Shown: positions 36,359-59,296 of the stretch, piece by piece
Position numbering within the stretch: position 1 is the stretch's first letter
Layout of the letters: the number at the start of each line of letters is the position of its first letter
Source of the DNA: a virus
Lineage: Duplodnaviria; Caudoviricetes
DNA: 64,000 nucleotides
Virus record (IMG/VR): IMGVR_UViG_2565956658_000004
Span: 39,937-103,936 of that record
Strand: one strand, 5' to 3'
Made by a program: the position numbers and the translations under genes
Notes under the pieces: model-generated
The model's database searches: none
What the model saw: the letters and a program-made list of their open reading frames with translations, nothing else
Told to the model about the DNA's origin: nothing

Positions 36359-37285
36359 TTATGCTCCAGTTGAACCAACAGCCATTTGCCACAACCCATA
36401 TCCCGCTGCACCACGTGCTTCAGCACCGTATTTAAACTTTTTACGCATAAATACAGAATCACTTGATGTATCAGTTTGCTGTACAAATACAGGCTTCTTA
36501 CGAGGCTGAAAGATAATGGCTTTGACTGGCTTGGTTGAATCATGCAAGTGCCACTCAGTGTCGGTTTTTAACCAACCCACAACGAGAACTTTTGCAGTAG
36601 CTTTATAAGGATTAGGCTTACCATCTTCCAAACGATCATTCGTCATTAATGCATTTGCAATATCTTCCAAAGCTGGAGGCACAATCAACAAACTCGGTTT
36701 TAAGTTCAGTGGGCGACCTTCTTCATCTTTCACGCTACGCAGCATAGTACGCGCAGCGCCATAACTCGCTTTGGCAGCAGCCAATGAATCAATGCTCAAA
36801 GGCACATTCAGACGATTTGAAACTAGCTTTTTATTTTTACCTTCACCGACTTCATGATTCGTCGCGTAAAACGTTTTACCGTCGTAGCACTGCTCACTAA
36901 AACCATTGGTTAAAGTAGTAAAGACAAGTTCATCTGCCCATTGCTTTGAAGACTCACCAGCCATTTCAGTTTGTGGCTTGTAGATACCTAAATTGTCATC
37001 TTCAATATCATTACGATCAATTTCAACGGTTGCTTCAAAATCATCATTGATGATGGTGTATGCATGACCTGATAACTGTTTTACAACTTTATCGCCGATC
37101 CATTTGCGAAGTTTTGGAAATTTATCAATCCATGCATATGTGTTAGATGCGCCACTGCTAGGTACTTGCATTGCGACTTGATCCCATTGGCTTTCAGCTG
37201 CTTCAAATGCAGCATCAAAAACCTTTTTAAGACTGGTTGCTAATGCATTCACTACACGTTGAGCAGTTTGTTCATTAAAAATCAT
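36359..37285 (-). CDS. Major capsid protein (Mu gpT-like)
   Basis: NTYAW...P.LR.W.G, FE.TV...R.DIEDD.LG.Y, GYG.WQMA. Confidence 0.95.
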   Translation of the reverse strand: MIFNEQTAQRVVNALATSLKKVFDAAFEAAESQWDQVAMQVPSSGASNTYAWIDKFPKLRKWIGDKVVKQLSGHAYTIINDDFEATVEIDRNDIEDDNLGIYKPQTEMAGESSKQWADELVFTTLTNGFSEQCYDGKTFYATNHEVGEGKNKKLVSNRLNVPLSIDSLAAAKASYGAARTMLRSVKDEEGRPLNLKPSLLIVPPALEDIANALMTNDRLEDGKPNPYKATAKVLVVGWLKTDTEWHLHDSTKPVKAIIFQPRKKPVFVQQTDTSSDSVFMRKKFKYGAEARGAAGYGLWQMAVGSTGA

Positions 37286-37720: not shown

Positions 37721-38785
37721 TTAAAGCCCTAATTGCCCATCAATTGCGATAGCGATTTCATCAGGCTGGCTTTGTTGTTGCTGTTGACCACCAACAAGAG
37801 TTACAGAACTGGTTTGGCGCTGTGATAAAGCCGCAATTTTTGGCAAGCTTTCAATATGGGTTTTAATAAAATCAGGATTGGTTTTTGCCTGATCTTTCAC
37901 CCAGTCAATAGTTGCTGCGCCAGTTAAACGTCCGTCACTACATGCTGCTACGATTAGATCATCAATTTCTTTTGCTTTGGCTTGCGCTACTGATGTACCA
38001 GCCCGATTCACAGCTTCCTGATAGACAGCGATTGGCACGAACTGAGTGAGATCAGGAGTAGATTGGCTATTTGCTGCAATTTTAAGTTGATCAATTGCTG
38101 CAATTGCGTCAAAAAGGTTCTGACTGTTAGCAGCGAGTGCAACACCTGTTTTTTCTTTAATTTGCTGCTGAAGCTTGCTAAGTTCTGCCAAGATTTCTTC
38201 CGCAGTAGCGGATAACGGCAGATTTAGCATCCAGCGCAATTGTTCTAATAACTCATCCATTTTGGAATCCTGTGATAAATTTTGGGCAAAAAACTCCTGA
38301 GCTGCCGCAGCAAGTTTTGCTTCAGGCAACTGATCTAATGCAGGGGTATTTGTTAGGGCGACATTAATCAGAGTGGTGATTGCACCAGTGCTGTCATACA
38401 AGAACACTGGCGAGATGTATTTGTATTCTTGTGCTTCAATATGGTCTTTGGCTTTCTGTAGCCATTCAAAGTTCGTACTACATAATCCGACTCCTTCAAT
38501 GTAGGTGAAACCAGCAGATTTTAACCATCCCGCAGCTGGAGCTGGATCACCAGTTTGTTTCGACTTTAAAGTGGCATGTTCGTAATCGATGACTGTATCT
38601 ATCTTGCGCTGGTTTAAAGCAGCAACAATTTGTCGACCACGTTCTGGAGTCAAAATCCAGTGTGGGGCATCATAAGGGCGACCATCAATTTCACTGCGAA
38701 AGACACCTTCAGGAATCAATACAAAGTGATCTGATAATGCGGATAAGTCGAATGAGCACGAAGCTGCGAGTAATGTCTTTTTCAT
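37721..38785 (-). CDS. Prohead protease/scaffold (Mu gpI/Z-like)
   Basis: DGRP, IDYEH, APAAGW, Y.YISPVF, ALTN.PAL; internal MDELLEQL scaffold start. Confidence 0.93.
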   Translation of the reverse strand: MKKTLLAASCSFDLSALSDHFVLIPEGVFRSEIDGRPYDAPHWILTPERGRQIVAALNQRKIDTVIDYEHATLKSKQTGDPAPAAGWLKSAGFTYIEGVGLCSTNFEWLQKAKDHIEAQEYKYISPVFLYDSTGAITTLINVALTNTPALDQLPEAKLAAAAQEFFAQNLSQDSKMDELLEQLRWMLNLPLSATAEEILAELSKLQQQIKEKTGVALAANSQNLFDAIAAIDQLKIAANSQSTPDLTQFVPIAVYQEAVNRAGTSVAQAKAKEIDDLIVAACSDGRLTGAATIDWVKDQAKTNPDFIKTHIESLPKIAALSQRQTSSVTLVGGQQQQQSQPDEIAIAIDGQLGL

Positions 38786-38843: not shown

Positions 38844-39338
38844 TTATGGATTAAATATTTTATGCCAGTAGTGATCTACATCAATGAAAACTTCTTTTTC
38901 AGCTTCAGGTTGCATATTGCCATCCGTATCAATTGGCATATAAGGACGTGCAGGAATATCACCGAAGGGAATCGGTGCACCACGACTCGTTTTTCCTGAT
39001 TCACCTTTCTTGATACCAAAATGCATGGCGGCTGCATAGGGCATATTATTACTAATCACTGCTTCATCTTGAGTATGACTGGTGACAACTCTGGCTCTTA
39101 GATCACCAGAGCACTGTAAGACACCACTGTATTTTATGCCTTTACGCTCATAGATTTTTAACGTCACTGCCGAGCGTCCTGCCCATTGTGGGCGACCGCC
39201 CATATCAAAATTATCATCTGTCACTGTTGCAAAAGTTGTAGCAATTGCTGCGGCTAATGGTGATGTATTAAGTAAATGACCAGCAACTTGATTAAGACGA
39301 TCAACCAGTGCTTGATCGTTGATTTTTATAGCGCTCAT
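38844..39338 (-). CDS. Virion morphogenesis protein (Mu gpG-like)
   Basis: F...GRP.W, YAA.HFG, IPARPY. Confidence 0.9.
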   Translation of the reverse strand: MSAIKINDQALVDRLNQVAGHLLNTSPLAAAIATTFATVTDDNFDMGGRPQWAGRSAVTLKIYERKGIKYSGVLQCSGDLRARVVTSHTQDEAVISNNMPYAAAMHFGIKKGESGKTSRGAPIPFGDIPARPYMPIDTDGNMQPEAEKEVFIDVDHYWHKIFNP

Positions 39339-39354
39339 AATTTATACTATTCCT

Positions 39355-39432
39355 GAGATGGTAGTTTCCAAATAGAACGGTTACAGGCGAAAGCTATGTA
39401 TTATGCTGTGCAAGTCAGCCACCATCTCACAA
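39355..39432 (+). ncRNA. Putative tRNA-shaped RNA without an anticodon loop
   Basis: TTGATT-18-TATACT promoter (39319-39348); GAGATGG/CCATCTC stem; D-like and T-like arms; GAAA-capped middle arm. Confidence 0.55.
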
Positions 39433-40767
39433 CTATCTAATCTTTTCATAAAGACCGCCCTGCAAGCTTCCAGCTACAACATCATCTTTAATCTTAAAAA
39501 TACTCACAATTTCCATCACGCCATTTTTTGAACGTATTGATAACTTAATCACTTCATTTGGCGCATTTTTCTGAAGTGCTGGTAATAGATACAACACACT
39601 TTGATTATCAACATCCCAAATGACTTGCTGTGCTTGTGGAATAAGCTTAGGTAAAGCGATCCATTCATCCAACGTTGGCGCATTGCCAGCTGCACCATGT
39701 CGTTGAGCTTTTTGACCAACAAGCAAATGGTCTGAAATTGTAAGAATTGGGCTTTCTACTGCAACACTCTTTTTTGCCAAGAATTGAATATCTTGCATAT
39801 CAACTACACCAACGGTATTAGTTTTATTTTGCTGCTTGCCAAAACTGATGGCGTTTTTAACAAATGCCTCATGCGCTTTAATACGTGGTGCGCTTAATAA
39901 CATTTGTTGCACTTGTTGCAAACCTTTCTGAGCACCGAGCAGATTGGCAGCTCGCTTGGTCAGTTCAACATCGAGTAAATAGCTCGCTGCTGGATGACTA
40001 TTAAAGCCAGCCGTAGGCGAGAAATAAGTGACTTGTCCATCCGCTTGCTTGATACGAATACGCGTCTGTGTAGCAACAGCATCCTGACCAGTAAAACTAC
40101 TTTTTCCAATCACAACCTGATGTTGATCAATATCTTCAGGTTTAGTTTCAACAACATTTAAATCCAAAGCCTCAACATCACTGGCACGACGTGCACGAAT
40201 TTTACATTGACAGCCAAACTCAGTTGGTGGGTAGGCATAAAGCCAAAAGGGATCATCATAACGACGGGTTTCACCATTCCGTGCTAAATGTACTTTGCGC
40301 GGATTAGTAATCGAAATATGTACCCATTCCCACAATGGGCGAGTATCAACACTTGCCATCATTGACTTATAGCGCCCAGCTGCAAGACTCTTATGGACAT
40401 TGGTATCAAATATGGTTTTAAGACGACGTGGGCTACCAAGCTGAACTGTTTGATTAACACCAGCAGGATTAATAACTGTCTGTTTTCCCCACCAACCTTT
40501 TTGCTGCAAGACTGGTGTAATTGCGGCTTTCCATTGTTCTAAATTTTGACCTTGTTCCAGTGCAGTAATCAGTGACTTTCTGATGTCTTGTAGCAGATCA
40601 ATACGAGCAACTTTAGCAACAGTAAAAGCACGGCTATGCGCTTCATCAAGCGTCTCATGCCAGTCCCAGCCAATTTTAAAACCTTTCGATTTTAAATAAG
40701 AAATTGCATCTTCAGGCGGCAACTTAAATAGAGCGTTCAGTTCTGGGCGTGAAGGGACATTAGCCAT
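39433..40767 (-). CDS. MuF (gp30-like) head protein with a C-terminal extension (putative PBECR-type nuclease)
   Basis: AFTVAK, RL.TI..TN, PP..FGC.C MuF motifs plus about 150 extra residues (K..RH...N..T..EW..LP..I....V.WD). Confidence 0.85.
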   Translation of the reverse strand: MANVPSRPELNALFKLPPEDAISYLKSKGFKIGWDWHETLDEAHSRAFTVAKVARIDLLQDIRKSLITALEQGQNLEQWKAAITPVLQQKGWWGKQTVINPAGVNQTVQLGSPRRLKTIFDTNVHKSLAAGRYKSMMASVDTRPLWEWVHISITNPRKVHLARNGETRRYDDPFWLYAYPPTEFGCQCKIRARRASDVEALDLNVVETKPEDIDQHQVVIGKSSFTGQDAVATQTRIRIKQADGQVTYFSPTAGFNSHPAASYLLDVELTKRAANLLGAQKGLQQVQQMLLSAPRIKAHEAFVKNAISFGKQQNKTNTVGVVDMQDIQFLAKKSVAVESPILTISDHLLVGQKAQRHGAAGNAPTLDEWIALPKLIPQAQQVIWDVDNQSVLYLLPALQKNAPNEVIKLSIRSKNGVMEIVSIFKIKDDVVAGSLQGGLYEKIR

Positions 40768-42406
40768 TTTCTGCTTCTGCCTCCGCACTCAAGCGACCAA
40801 ACACTTCAGCTGCAAAAAATAGTTGTGTCAGTTTTTCCTGAAGTGCAGGTTCATCTTCAGTTGGATATAGCTCAGCCAGTACAGCTAAAATTTCATCATC
40901 ATTTTGACCAGCTTGGATTTTGGCAATTAAGCCTTTAGTCCAAGCTTCAGCAGTTTGTTGTGCTTGCTTTGCTTGATCATTGAGTAAGAGCTGAATAGCT
41001 TGTTCTTCAAGTGGGATTTGATTATTTTCTGCAATCAACCCATTGAGCAGTTGAGGCAAATAAGTATTCACTGCCAAATTAGGTACGACAGGATTTTGAT
41101 TCAATGCCGCCCAACGTTGTGCATCTGCTAAGCGTTCAGCTACAAGTTGTACTTGGCGTTGAACTCCCAATACAGGCTCTTGATCATCAGCAGGTTCAGG
41201 AATACCAAGCTTCTCATGCGCCCATGTCCGCGGAATTTTGAAGCCAATTTCTACAAGCTTTGGCAATGCTTCACTAAAGACTTCCATATCTTCAGTATCA
41301 GTCGTGTCAAAGTAAAATGACGGGTAACGATCAGGTGAAATTTCAGAGTAATTTAATTGCATTAAATACTTGATCAAACAATCATTGATTGATCGTGCAA
41401 GTTGCTTAGCATCAGATTTGACTAGTTTCTCAAATTGAATCTCATGGGTTTGGCTTTGTGCATTAGTTGATGTTTTACCATCCGCTTGAGATAACAAAGT
41501 CCCCCCGACAATGACTTTTGATTGTGTATGTTCACACCACTTAATCAAGTCAAAATGGTTTTTAGTGTCACCGTCAGTAGCTTGTTCAAAATCAATTGCC
41601 ATGCCAGTGGGAATAATGCCACCAGCATTCCGCCCAATACTCATGACTGCACGAAGCAATGTCATTTTTTCTTTTTCTGTCGCACCACTTGGGTATTTAC
41701 CAATCTTGCTTGGTAGACCGTAAGTTTCTAAAAACTCCATCACATCGCGGATGCCATAGTTTTTAAATAGAAATGACCAACTCAGAACACGATGCAAACC
41801 AGAGCGAGCGATATAACCAGACTTAGCCTTATGCCGATGGATGAACCAGCCGAAATCCCAAAAGTCAGCGCCCTCATGCGATCCATCATTCAGGCGCAGC
41901 TCATTCGGCTTGTCATAAGGTGTCATGAAGTTACGGGGGTTTACATACTCAAAGCTTTTAGGCAGCCACAAGTTACCCAGTTGATGCCATTCGATCTCTT
42001 GGCAGGAGTAGCCATGACCAGCAGCATCCATTGCATCGAATAAAAACATCTCAAAATCTTTGATGTCGTCAATCCATTCAGCAACTTCTTCAGCAATTTT
42101 TCTTTCTGCTTCAGAGGCATTCTTTGGTGGATTAACTCCCCATGACAGACCGTTAATACCTTTCTTACGTTTATCCATTTCGCTAAAAATATGACCATCA
42201 CGCTCTTCCATATCGCAAAACAGATCAGCCTGTGCTTGTAAGTTACCTTGCTCAGCATTGGTCAAAAGCTGGTGCAACCTTTGTGGTGTCAAACCTACAA
42301 CAGGATGCTCTTGCCACTGATTTGCTAACCATGCGACATCAGCAGTTTGGTTCTGCTCCAGTGCTGTACGATCTTGAGTTTTGGATTGAGATTTTTTCTT
42401 AGCCAT
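40760..42406 (-). CDS. Portal protein (DUF935, Mu gp29-like)
   Basis: DMEERD.H, FLE.YGLP...GKY, SK...GGTL. Confidence 0.95.
   Translation of the reverse strand: MAKKKSQSKTQDRTALEQNQTADVAWLANQWQEHPVVGLTPQRLHQLLTNAEQGNLQAQADLFCDMEERDGHIFSEMDKRKKGINGLSWGVNPPKNASEAERKIAEEVAEWIDDIKDFEMFLFDAMDAAGHGYSCQEIEWHQLGNLWLPKSFEYVNPRNFMTPYDKPNELRLNDGSHEGADFWDFGWFIHRHKAKSGYIARSGLHRVLSWSFLFKNYGIRDVMEFLETYGLPSKIGKYPSGATEKEKMTLLRAVMSIGRNAGGIIPTGMAIDFEQATDGDTKNHFDLIKWCEHTQSKVIVGGTLLSQADGKTSTNAQSQTHEIQFEKLVKSDAKQLARSINDCLIKYLMQLNYSEISPDRYPSFYFDTTDTEDMEVFSEALPKLVEIGFKIPRTWAHEKLGIPEPADDQEPVLGVQRQVQLVAERLADAQRWAALNQNPVVPNLAVNTYLPQLLNGLIAENNQIPLEEQAIQLLLNDQAKQAQQTAEAWTKGLIAKIQAGQNDDEILAVLAELYPTEDEPALQEKLTQLFFAAEVFGRLSAEAEAENG

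Positions 42407-59219: not shown

Positions 59220-59296
<77 letters not shown>

What the first reader, a model, noticed from the sequence alone, without database searches (positions are those of the whole stretch)
39319..40767. tRNA-shaped, anticodon-less RNA transcribed toward an extended MuF gene: candidate RNA antitoxin or decoy
Seen: the 94-bp gap between gpG and MuF holds a + strand promoter (TTGATT-18-TATACT) whose predicted +1 coincides with a 78-nt cloverleaf. It has a 7-bp acceptor stem GAGATGG/CCATCTC, TA at positions 8-9, a D-like arm GTTT-CCAAATA-GAAC, a middle arm TACA-GGC-GAAA-GCT-A-TGTA capped by a GNRA loop in place of an anticodon, a T-like arm GCTG-TGCAAGT-CAGC, and a 3' end A-CAA that abuts the MuF stop codon. 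MuF carries a C-terminal extension resembling PBECR-type RNase domains, with no protein immunity gene after it. Known: MuF proteins can carry C-terminal toxin domains. Inference: the RNA is a tRNA mimic that neutralises this domain, or a decoy against host anticodon nucleases.
Basis: partly seen in the sequence, partly recalled or inferred. Interest (0 to 1): 0.8.

Follow-up and report, generated by a model that had tools for sequence, protein, structure and literature searches.

The report
tRNA-shaped small RNA gene in Mu-like prophages
Between two head genes of a Mu-like prophage of Acinetobacter sits a small, separately promoted RNA gene whose product folds like a tRNA without an anticodon; it is a conserved, previously uncatalogued RNA family, but it is not an antidote to the neighbouring MuF protein.

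Summary
The 94-nt MuF-gpG gap carries a four-helix cloverleaf (window 39355-39428). In this one sequence it is barely better than chance (z -2.1). Across 36 distinct relatives it is clearly real: 96% of cells pair, 14 of 17 pairs show compensatory changes, and 0 of 500 shuffles reach this.

A sigma-70-type promoter precedes the stem base in 28 of 28 loci. GNRA caps and most extra wobble pairs exist only on this strand, and it folds more stably in 24 of 29 sequences. Six divergent members carry a canonical tRNA T-loop together with a GG D-loop.

It is not a tRNA: the Rfam tRNA model and ARAGORN reject all copies, the middle arm is variable, and there is no conserved CCA.

The antitoxin reading fails. 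MuF is an ordinary Mu gp30/D3112 orf28-type protein with no toxin domain. Eight MuF genes with the same C-terminus lack the RNA. Three prophage relics keep the RNA gene without MuF or gpG. No prophage protein tracks the RNA.

Best reading: an RNA 'moron', a tRNA mimic acting in trans, possibly a decoy. There are no expression data, and the function is inferred.

The parts
39319..39324 (+). -35 hexamer TTGATT of the RNA promoter, formed by gpG codons 6-7 (Ile ATC, Asn) read on the other strand
   Evidence: One search lists TTGATT-18-TATACT. One search finds TTGAT[T/G/A], TTGAAA or TTGTCA at this spacing in 28 of 28 loci that have upstream sequence. One search shows the Ile codon is ATC in all the element-bearing loci listed.
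39343..39348 (+). -10 hexamer TATACT, 6 nt before the first base of the outer stem
   Evidence: The variants TAAACT, TATATT, TATAGT, TAGAAT, CATAAT and TATAAT all keep A2 and T6 (T1 changes only in CATAAT). The hexamer lies 5-9 nt from the stem base. The scan tool finds a promoter on this strand in 4 of 4 divergent loci tested.
39355..39428 (+). core of the tRNA-shaped RNA (74 nt): outer stem to outer stem
   Evidence: Covariation. Model R1/R2 match at window 39352-39430 with 89.6 bits.
39355..39362 (+). 5' strand of the acceptor-like stem GAGATGG, plus U8, which pairs with A39421 on this strand
   Evidence: All 7 pairs change on both sides. The eighth pair is U-A in 10, U.G in 18 and C-G in 1 of 29 on the + strand, but is a C.A mismatch on the other strand.
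39363..39381 (+). D-like region A-GUUU-CCA-AAUAGAA-CGG-U
Evidence: Nearly invariant. Six divergent members have UGG in this loop.
39382..39400 (+). variable middle arm UACA-GGC-GAAA-GCU-A-UGUA, with a GNRA cap and no anticodon loop
   Evidence: The three basal pairs covary. Length and sequence vary between loci. The GNRA loops GAAA and GCAA, and UUCG, occur only on this strand.
39401..39404 (+). 4-nt linker UUAU, in the place of a tRNA variable loop
   Evidence: UUAU in 33 of 36 sequences and UGAU in 3 of 36.
39405..39419 (+). T-like arm GCUG-UGCAAGU-CAGC, with a closing G-C pair
   Evidence: 3 of 4 pairs covary and the closing G-C is invariant. The loop is UGCAAGU in 30 of 36, and a canonical UUCGAGU, UUCGAAU or UUCAAUU in 6 of 36.
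39420..39428 (+). C, A, then the 3' strand of the acceptor-like stem CCATCTC
39433..40767 (-). MuF (Mu gp30 F-like virion morphogenesis protein, 444 aa), a neighbour and not a partner
38844..39338 (-). gpG (Phage_tail_S, tail completion / Neck1 type). Its first codons supply the -35 hexamer.

Best explanation
The gap holds a self-contained small-RNA gene. It is an 'RNA moron' inserted between the MuF stop codon and the gpG start codon, and it is read from the strand opposite to the late operon.

How it is built:
- A sigma-70-type promoter drives it. The -10 hexamer lies in the gap, and the -35 hexamer is made by gpG codons 6-7.
- Transcription starts at or within a few bases of an 8-bp outer stem.
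- The transcript of about 75-90 nt folds into a four-way junction with tRNA proportions.
- The acceptor-like stem (8 bp) and the T-like stem (4 bp) give 12 stacked pairs.
- The T-like hairpin has a 7-nt loop closed by G-C.
- There is a D-like region, a 1-nt and a 4-nt linker, and a middle arm of free length and sequence capped mostly by GNRA loops.
- It most likely descends from a tRNA gene, but it has lost the anticodon arm, the CCA end and tRNA identity.

Inferred mechanism:
- The RNA is made from the prophage in lysogens.
- Its ends are trimmed by the host tRNA-processing enzymes (RNase P type), which tandem two- and three-unit versions would require.
- It then acts in trans by offering a tRNA body (acceptor/T-arm/elbow) to a tRNA-recognising factor. 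That is, it acts as a mimic or decoy.
- It does not act on MuF.

What is shown and what is inferred:
- Shown: the structure, the promoter, the strand, the tRNA-like loops, the lack of a linked protein, and survival in relics.
- Inferred: expression, processing, action in trans, and the target.
For: Structure:
- Searches show compensatory changes in all four helices.

Distribution:
- The element is single-copy or a tandem array, and it is always at the MuF|gpG junction or a relic of it.
- All 19 viral-contig pattern hits are at that junction.
- Of 24 metagenome pattern hits, 13 are real and lie at that junction. The other 11 are chance matches that lack the model match and both genes.
- Five whole genomes have only the known locus.
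- Ten prophage records lacking it at the junction lack it everywhere.

Strand:
- A promoter lies on the + strand in 28 of 28 loci, and in 4 of 4 divergent loci by the scan tool, against 0.1-1.4 sites expected.
- The promoter holds even where the box is not next to the ATG (L143).
- GNRA or UUCG caps, and the A.C-to-G.U positions in the middle arm, the T-like stem and the eighth outer pair, exist only on this strand.
- The + strand MFE is lower in 24 of 29 sequences, mean -20.5 against -17.3 kcal/mol.

tRNA likeness:
- Six of 36 sequences have UUCGAGU, UUCGAAU or UUCAAUU together with UGG in the D-like loop. The other 30 of 36 have UGCAAGU with AAUAGAA or AAAAGAA. The association is perfect.
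- These motifs match the T-loop and D-loop of the Rfam tRNA consensus printed.
- L022 sits within the main group yet has switched both loops.
- Real tRNA-Gly and tRNA-Tyr genes match model R1 only as reverse complements (16.8 bits, E 0.008; 9.5 bits, E 0.57).
- The window's UA-GUUU...GAAC equals the D arm of a neighbouring tRNA-Gly.

Action in trans:
- Relics L154 (172 nt of homology), L221 (about 570 nt, three units) and L223 keep the RNA and its promoter. They lie next to gyrA, a GST gene and a rhodanese/tRNA-tufB operon, without MuF or gpG.
- No ORF family tracks the RNA in 11 bearing against 10 lacking prophages. The best split is 6/11 against 1/10.

Not a coding region:
- The ORF from the junction AUG is 10-45 aa and is not conserved.
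Against: - No transcript has been seen, and no RNA run was listed for this sequence.
- On the 17 core pairs, wobble pairs do not favour either strand: 12 on the + strand and 11 on the sense strand. Seven of the 11 sense wobbles fall on one doubtful pair.
- L228 has one A.C mismatch on the + strand.
- The Rfam tRNA model gives no hit at E<=10, even for the divergent members. ARAGORN calls none of the 34 element-bearing loci scanned nor the window.
- There is no conserved discriminator-CCA end and no conserved terminator.
- The constant position over MuF identities from 26% to 90% could mean a local (cis) role.
- There are only three relics, and the L223 relic is not shared within its genus (2 of 20 genomes).
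- The sequences are related to each other, so counts overstate independent events.
- Alignments A3-A5 were fitted to the model. A1 and A2 were not.
Confidence: 0.6

Rival explanations
1. It is a cis-antisense regulator. The + strand RNA pairs with the late mRNA at the MuF-gpG junction and changes its cleavage, stability or the F:G expression ratio. The tRNA shape serves only for stability and RNase P processing, as in the P1/P7 C4 and P4 CI RNAs.
For: The position is fixed at the MuF|gpG junction from 90% down to 26% MuF identity. The RNA is perfectly complementary to the late transcript by construction. Phage regulatory RNAs processed by RNase P are known (passage read in PMC5499578).
Against: Relics keep the RNA and its promoter after MuF and gpG are gone. 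The transcript would start at the stem base and so would not cover the gpG ribosome-binding site or start codon. The loops and junctions are nearly invariant, and the T-loop and D-loop change together, which antisense pairing does not require. Tandem units exist. There is no Rfam C4 match.
Confidence: 0.15
2. The functional molecule is the sense strand. The cloverleaf is part of the late polycistronic mRNA. It is either a processing signal like plant mitochondrial t-elements, or a fold that brings the MuF stop codon next to the gpG start to keep translation coupled.
For: The - strand also folds into a four-way junction. The outer stem abuts or overlaps the MuF stop codon. Loci without the element have overlapping stop and start codons. 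The 11-78 position is G.T in all sequences, which pairs only on the sense strand.
Against: The sense strand is less stable in 24 of 29 sequences. Its tetraloops are never GNRA, and its mismatches become wobble pairs on the other strand. The canonical T-loop and D-loop motifs of the divergent members read correctly only on the + strand. A promoter is conserved on the + strand. Relics exist without any operon.
Confidence: 0.08
3. It is a decaying tRNA pseudogene carried along by the phage, with no function of its own.
For: It has tRNA-like arms and motifs but no anticodon arm or CCA, and tRNA finders reject it. It has been lost from most related prophages: 58 of 78 loci lack it.
Against: Compensatory changes maintain all four helices across phages whose MuF is only 26-57% identical. 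The loops and junctions are almost invariant. The promoter is maintained in every copy. Units have been duplicated in tandem.
Confidence: 0.07
4. The RNA is an antitoxin that neutralises an RNase-like toxin domain at the C-terminus of MuF.
For: The RNA is adjacent to MuF and no protein immunity gene follows it. MuF-toxin fusions exist in other phages (recalled knowledge).
Against: MuF has no extra domain. MuF lengths are similar with and without the RNA, and 8 loci with the same C-terminus lack the RNA. Relics have the RNA but no MuF.
Confidence: 0.03
5. It is a DNA-level element, for example a centre-of-genome gyrase or synapsis site or a cruciform. This would be analogous to the strong gyrase site that phage Mu carries between G and I (recalled knowledge).
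For: The element lies near the middle of the prophage records, for example at 17.6 of 37.2 kb and 19.2 of 38.5 kb.
Against: Four helices with compensatory changes, GNRA caps, strand-specific wobble pairs, tRNA loop motifs and a dedicated promoter are not expected of a gyrase site. Most related phages lack the element, and relics keep it outside any phage.
Confidence: 0.03

Closest known systems
tRNA (Rfam RF00005)
   Same: It has a four-way junction, a 7-8 bp acceptor-like stem and UA at positions 8-9. It has a 1-nt and a 4-nt linker and a T-like hairpin with a 7-nt loop closed by G-C. In 6 of 36 members it has a canonical T-loop plus a GG D-loop. There are 12 stacked pairs from the T-loop to the stem end.
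   Different: There is no anticodon arm; the middle arm is variable and often capped by GNRA. There is no conserved discriminator-CCA. The T stem has 4 bp with an unpaired C. The main group has UGCAAGU and no GG. The tRNA covariance model and ARAGORN reject it.
P1/P7 C4 and P4 CI immunity RNAs (phage antisense RNAs processed by RNase P)
   Same: These are also small (about 77-79 nt, recalled), structured, phage-encoded, non-coding RNAs. They are made in lysogens and have an acceptor-like closing stem. They are RNase P substrates (passage read in PMC5499578).
   Different: Those RNAs lack a T-loop equivalent (same passage) and act by loop pairing with sites in their own operon. Here a T-like loop is present, no paired target sites were found in the window, and no Rfam C4 match was found.
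YrlA / bacterial Y RNA-like RNAs and other tRNA-like modules (mascRNA, plant mitochondrial t-elements)
   Same: In these RNAs a tRNA-like body has its anticodon arm replaced by another helix, and tRNA enzymes recognise it.
   Different: The element gives no match to Rfam YrlA (RF02553 is in the library). It has no Ro/Rsr-binding helix or rsr neighbour. It is encoded in a phage head-gene cluster.
Phage 'morons' and the anti-CRISPR locus of D3112-like Mu-like phages
   Same: It is an accessory, separately promoted insert with presence/absence polymorphism inside the conserved F-G-I head-gene block. In D3112 the acrF2 gene lies directly after G.
   Different: The insert here is an RNA gene on the opposite strand, not a protein gene.
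MuF polymorphic toxins with an immunity gene
   Same: A MuF (PF04233) domain protein lies next to the element.
   Different: There is no C-terminal toxin domain and no immunity gene. The RNA is uncoupled from MuF in evolution.
Type III toxin-antitoxin RNA arrays (ToxI-like)
   Same: Tandem RNA units occur in some loci, with 2 or 3 copies.
   Different: The units are about 85 nt cloverleaves and are usually single. There is no adjacent endoribonuclease toxin, and no protein tracks the RNA.

Membership tests
tRNA | Recognised by the tRNA covariance model or ARAGORN | tested here: not met
   Rfam gives no tRNA hit at E<=10 on the window, L022 or five divergent loci, while four real tRNAs in L223 score 58-76 bits. 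ARAGORN called none of the 34 element-bearing loci scanned nor the element in the window.
tRNA | Anticodon arm: 5-bp stem with a 7-nt loop | tested here: not met
   The middle arm varies in length and sequence, and its loops are mostly tetraloops such as GAAA, GCAA and UUCG.
tRNA | Acceptor stem plus T arm with a UUCRA-type loop and a GG D-loop | tested here: inconclusive
   The stem and a 7-nt loop closed by G-C are present in all 36 sequences. Canonical loop sequences occur in only 6 of 36.
tRNA | Encoded or added 3' CCA after a discriminator base | tested here: not met
   The 3' flanks differ between loci (ACAA, ACUC, CUUA, AAUC and others). ACCA occurs only in L088a and L164. Whether CCA is added after transcription cannot be tested here.
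C4/CI-type phage antisense immunity RNA | Match to the Rfam C4 model, and loops complementary to paired sites in the same phage | tested here: not met
   There is no Rfam hit. The 7-mers complementary to the two loops never occur close together elsewhere in the window.
MuF polymorphic toxin / immunity pair | MuF N-terminal domain fused to a C-terminal toxin domain, followed by an immunity gene | tested here: not met
   Pfam finds only Phage_Mu_F at residues 60-190. The C-terminal 244 aa give only sub-threshold noise (PIN_2, 15.4 bits against a cut-off of 22.4). The full length aligns to D3112 orf28-type proteins.
Type III toxin-antitoxin | RNA repeat array next to a toxin endoribonuclease gene | tested here: not met
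   The neighbours are MuF and gpG. No ORF family co-occurs with the RNA.
Dispersed repeat / MITE | Many copies per genome in unrelated contexts | tested here: not met
   There is one locus per genome in 5 whole genomes, and one locus in each genome that matched in the samples.

The most novel reading that the evidence does not exclude
A prophage-encoded, anticodon-less tRNA mimic is made in lysogens and acts as an RNA decoy. It would occupy a factor that recognises the tRNA acceptor/T-arm/elbow, such as a tRNA-targeting immune nuclease or toxin, or a tRNA-processing enzyme. That would protect the lysogen or the phage, and it would be an RNA-only counterpart of protein anti-defence genes. It is useful enough to be kept, and even triplicated, after the rest of the prophage has decayed.
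Probability: 0.2. Interest if true: 0.85.

Novelty: new variant of a known kind. Interest (0 to 1): 0.68.

Why it matters
Phages are known to carry real tRNAs, and in a few cases these rescue infection from tRNA-cleaving defences. One listed preprint abstract, 10.1101/2023.03.15.532788, reports T5 tRNA-Tyr acting against a retron.

A conserved RNA that keeps only the tRNA body and discards the anticodon would be a different tool. It points to recognition of tRNA shape rather than decoding.

The family is small and cleanly defined. It has natural single, double and triple versions, natural loop-swap variants, and closely related prophages that lack it. Together these make a ready-made experimental system.

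It also adds an RNA gene to the accessory-gene hotspot in the head-gene block of Mu-like phages. Finally, it gives a covariance model for a motif that is absent from Rfam 15.

Tried and rejected
- RNA evidence: the look-up of sequencing runs listed no RNA holder for window 39000-39900, so nothing could be laid. This says nothing about expression.
- blastn of the gap against the phage collection found no match.
- Rfam at E<=10 gave only chance snoRNA/miRNA-level hits.
- Trans targets: the 7-mers complementary to the two conserved loops occur at chance-like numbers and never near each other outside the element.
- Small protein: the ORF starting at the conserved junction AUG is 10-45 aa with unrelated tails, and the start is ATC in L143. 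Searches had faulty regular expressions for this and gave no result.
- Protein partner: all-against-all comparison of ORFs of 60 aa or more from 11 bearing and 10 lacking prophages gave no family with a strong split. Short genes under 60 aa and very divergent partners would be missed.
- Strand call from wobble pairs on the 17 core pairs is a tie.
- More distant Mu-like loci (11 loci, filters off) have no match. An order-level sample of 150 other genomes also has none.
- A CRISPR-repeat mimic was considered from memory only. It was not tested and is not claimed.
- Literature searches found no description of this element. The library covers open-access papers and bioRxiv only, and supplements were not seen.
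Full report
**Setting.** The window is part of an IMG/VR provirus record. Positions 36-45 kb carry the head-gene block of a Mu-like prophage on the - strand:
- Portal, 40760-42406 (Portal_Mu).
- MuF, 39433-40767 (Phage_Mu_F).
- gpG, 38844-39338 (Phage_tail_S).
- Protease I, 37721-38785.
- Major head protein gpT, 36359-37285.

Related loci come mostly from Acinetobacter.

**The observation.** Taken alone they are weak evidence. The fold z-score is -2.1 on the + strand and -1.75 on the - strand. Promoter-like sites are no more frequent than in shuffles. ARAGORN and Rfam find nothing in the gap.

**Comparative evidence for the structure.**
- I fetched MuF-encoding loci from viral contigs and genomes and measured the MuF-gpG gap.
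- Of 78 loci with MuF at least 48% identical, 19 have a gap of 87-101 nt (179 nt in L088). Another 58 have -4 to +7 nt. One (L064) has 280 nt because its MuF match breaks off.
- The long gaps share one conserved element.
- RNAalifold on 17 sequences predicts a four-way junction in which 11 of 16 pairs show compensatory changes.
- On a MAFFT alignment of 23 distinct sequences, my four-helix structure pairs 97.7% of cells and 13 of 17 pairs change on both sides. No shuffle of 500 reaches this, and partners slid by 1-3 columns pair only 28-40%.
- With 36 distinct sequences aligned to the model, 96.1% of cells pair and 14 of 17 pairs change on both sides. This alignment leans towards the structure.
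- Outer stems differ completely between copies. GAGAUGG/CCAUCUC, AAGGCGG/CCGCCUU, GUGAAAUAG/CUAUUUCAC and CGGGG/CCCCG all occur.

**Where the element occurs.**
- A context-free DNA pattern found 19 viral contigs, all with the element between MuF and gpG homologues.
- The same kind of pattern found 24 metagenome stretches. Thirteen match covariance model R1 and sit at MuF|gpG. The other 11 match neither the model nor either gene and are chance hits.
- In five whole genomes the model finds only the known locus.
- In genome samples it is found in:
  - 6 of 151 genomes of the genus;
  - 4 of 151 (R1) and 6 of 151 (R2) of the family;
  - only the reference genome among 151 of the order.
- Ten related prophage records without it at the junction have it nowhere.
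- It is therefore a single-locus, phage-linked element with presence/absence polymorphism, and not a dispersed repeat.
- Junction sequences show a clean cassette. MuF ends ...E(V/L)IR-stop in both classes, and the roughly 90 nt lie exactly between stop and ATG.

**Which strand is functional.** Wobble pairs on the 17 core pairs do not decide. There are 12 on the + strand and 11 on the sense strand, and 7 of the 11 sense wobbles fall on one doubtful pair. Five other lines of evidence agree on the window's + strand, antisense to the late genes.
1. Promoter.
   - A sigma-70-type promoter precedes the element on this strand in 28 of 28 loci with upstream sequence. The form is TTGAT[T/G/A], TTGAAA or TTGTCA, then 17-18 nt, then TATACT, TAAACT, TATATT or TATAGT. 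The -10 hexamer lies 5-9 nt from the stem base.
   - The -35 hexamer is made by gpG codons 6-7. The Ile codon is ATC in all the element-bearing loci listed. Element-free loci with Ile there use ATT or ATC.
   - In L143 the -10 box is 15 nt away from the ATG, yet TTGTCA-17-TATAGT is intact.
   - The scan tool finds a promoter on this strand just upstream in L226 (TTGACT-16-TAGAAT), L222 and L223, against 0.1-1.4 sites expected.
2. Middle-arm caps. The caps are GAAA or GCAA in several unrelated arm types and UUCG in L143, on this strand only. None is GNRA on the sense strand.
3. Mismatches that become wobbles. A.C mismatches on the sense strand become G.U pairs on this strand. This happens in the middle arm, in the T-like stem (L154, L155, L171) and at an eighth outer pair. 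That pair is U-A in 10, U.G in 18 and C-G in 1 of 29.
4. Stability. This strand is more stable in 24 of 29 sequences, mean -20.5 against -17.3 kcal/mol, Wilcoxon p 4e-5. The sequences are not independent.
5. tRNA motifs. The tRNA motifs described in the next section read correctly only on this strand.

**tRNA likeness.** On the + strand the layout is:
- an 8-bp outer stem;
- A-GUUU;
- a D-like region;
- 1 nt;
- the middle arm;
- UUAU;
- a 4-bp T-like stem with a 7-nt loop closed by G-C;
- C;
- the 3' strand of the outer stem.

Outer stem plus T-like stem give 12 stacked pairs, the same as 7+5 in tRNA. The tRNA figure is established knowledge, and one search shows the 8+4 here.

Family-level searches added divergent members. 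L222, L226, L227 and L228 are still at MuF|gpG, with MuF 26-43% identical. L223 is the fifth.

Their T-like loops are UUCGAGU, UUCGAAU or UUCAAUU. Their D-like loops are AUGGGUAA, ACUGGUAA or ACUGGAA. These are the T-loop and D-loop of the Rfam tRNA consensus printed.

L022 otherwise belongs to the main group but has made the same switch, to UUCGAGU with AAUGGAA. Across 36 sequences the association is complete. Thirty have UGCAAGU without GG in the D-like loop, and 6 have a canonical T-loop with UGG.

I read this as a tRNA-type loop-loop (elbow) contact. That is an inference. For L022 an alternative local hairpin is also possible.

Model R1 was built on the sense strand, and it matches real tRNA-Gly and tRNA-Tyr genes only as reverse complements. 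The window's UA-GUUU...GAAC equals the D arm of that tRNA-Gly.

The element is still not a tRNA:
- There is no tRNA-model hit at E<=10.
- ARAGORN calls none of the 34 element-bearing loci scanned, nor the element in the window.
- The middle arm is free to vary.
- There is no conserved CCA.

Elsewhere a CC(N)/(N)GG hairpin fits. The columns are too invariant to choose between them.

**The MuF idea.**
- MuF (444 aa) has one Pfam domain, and PHROG 220 covers residues 6-397.
- The C-terminal 244 aa give only sub-threshold noise at E<=10.
- Residues 5-444 align to the virion morphogenesis proteins of D3112-like phages, and 171 phage records cover at least 80% of the protein.
- So there is no extension and no PBECR domain.
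- Eight loci with MuF aligned to residue 444 have no RNA.

**Cis or trans.** Three loci are relics.
- L154 keeps 172 nt, made of the element, about 30 nt of MuF and about 60 nt of gpG. It lies next to a gyrA C-terminal gene.
- L221 keeps about 570 nt with three tandem units and a gpG stub that stops after 15 codons. It lies next to a GST gene.
- L223 lies between a rhodanese gene and a Thr-Gly-Tyr-Thr tRNA-tuf operon, with a gpG-like 'MSNIKLAKN' stub.

All three keep an intact fold and a promoter. That favours a unit that is useful in itself. However, the L223 relic is not shared in its genus (2 of 20 genomes), so long-term retention is not shown.

No ORF family of 60 aa or more tracks the RNA in 11 bearing against 10 lacking prophages. 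The best split is 6/11 against 1/10. The junction AUG opens no conserved ORF. The + strand transcript would not cover the gpG ribosome-binding site.

**Mechanism.**
- Shown: a conserved, promoter-equipped, tRNA-shaped RNA gene that evolves independently of MuF.
- Inferred: it is expressed in lysogens, trimmed by tRNA-processing enzymes, and acts in trans by presenting a tRNA body. Tandem units would need an endonuclease such as RNase P to release them.
- A decoy for anticodon nucleases is unlikely, since the middle arm is not conserved. A factor that reads the acceptor/T-arm/elbow is the better guess.

**Comparison with known RNAs and context.**
- Phage RNAs processed by RNase P (phi80 M3, P4 CI, P1/P7 C4) are the nearest functional precedents. 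According to the passage I read in PMC5499578, they lack a T-loop equivalent.
- In D3112 an anti-CRISPR gene lies directly after G. The head-gene block is therefore a known site for accessory inserts in Mu-like phages.

**Novelty.** No Rfam 15 family matches. Five literature searches found no description, within an open-access library and without supplements. I rate it a new variant of a known kind (tRNA-like small RNAs). It is well supported as a structure and open as to function.

Noticed in passing
L088:4309-4482 and L221:1501-1752: The unit occurs as a tandem pair in L088, where the two units have unrelated outer stems. It occurs as a tandem triple in L221. The third unit of L221 has a broken inner outer stem but a further-out 7-of-8 pairing (GCCUUGUC/GACUAGGC).
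   Followed up: partly
L180 (phage D3112) 3376-3648: In D3112 the anti-CRISPR gene acrF2 and two small ORFs lie directly after the G homologue. So the F-G-I block is an accessory-gene site in Mu-like phages.
   Followed up: no
window 39296-39320 (+): A 9-bp inverted repeat (GACGATCAA...TTGATCGTT) followed by a T-run is listed as terminator-like. It lies inside the first gpG codons and ends at the -35 hexamer. It is present only in the gpG clade that begins ...INDQALIDR, so it is probably a by-product of coding.
   Followed up: partly
window 59220-59296 (+): The only tRNA gene in the window is a tRNA-Met (CAT). It lies about 20 kb from the element, and its relation to the prophage end was not examined.
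   Followed up: no
L108:5613-5688 (-): A distant Mu-like locus (Solidesulfovibrio, MuF 29% identical) carries a real tRNA-Thr. It is on the strand opposite to MuF, about 1.3 kb downstream of it.
   Followed up: no
L064:3951-4232: This locus has a 280-nt apparent gap because its MuF match ends at residue 314. The downstream DNA still reads like MuF C-terminal coding sequence, so this looks like a frameshifted or broken MuF.
   Followed up: no
L154:1330-1420 (- strand reading): A 30-nt sequence (tctttctaagccatctatgtgatgggacac) is repeated twice directly after the gpG stub of the relic. It may be a small repeat element at the deletion edge.
   Followed up: no
L130 and L017 (same source genome by contig name): One host genome carries two related Mu-like proviruses, one with the RNA (L130) and one without it (L017).
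   Followed up: no
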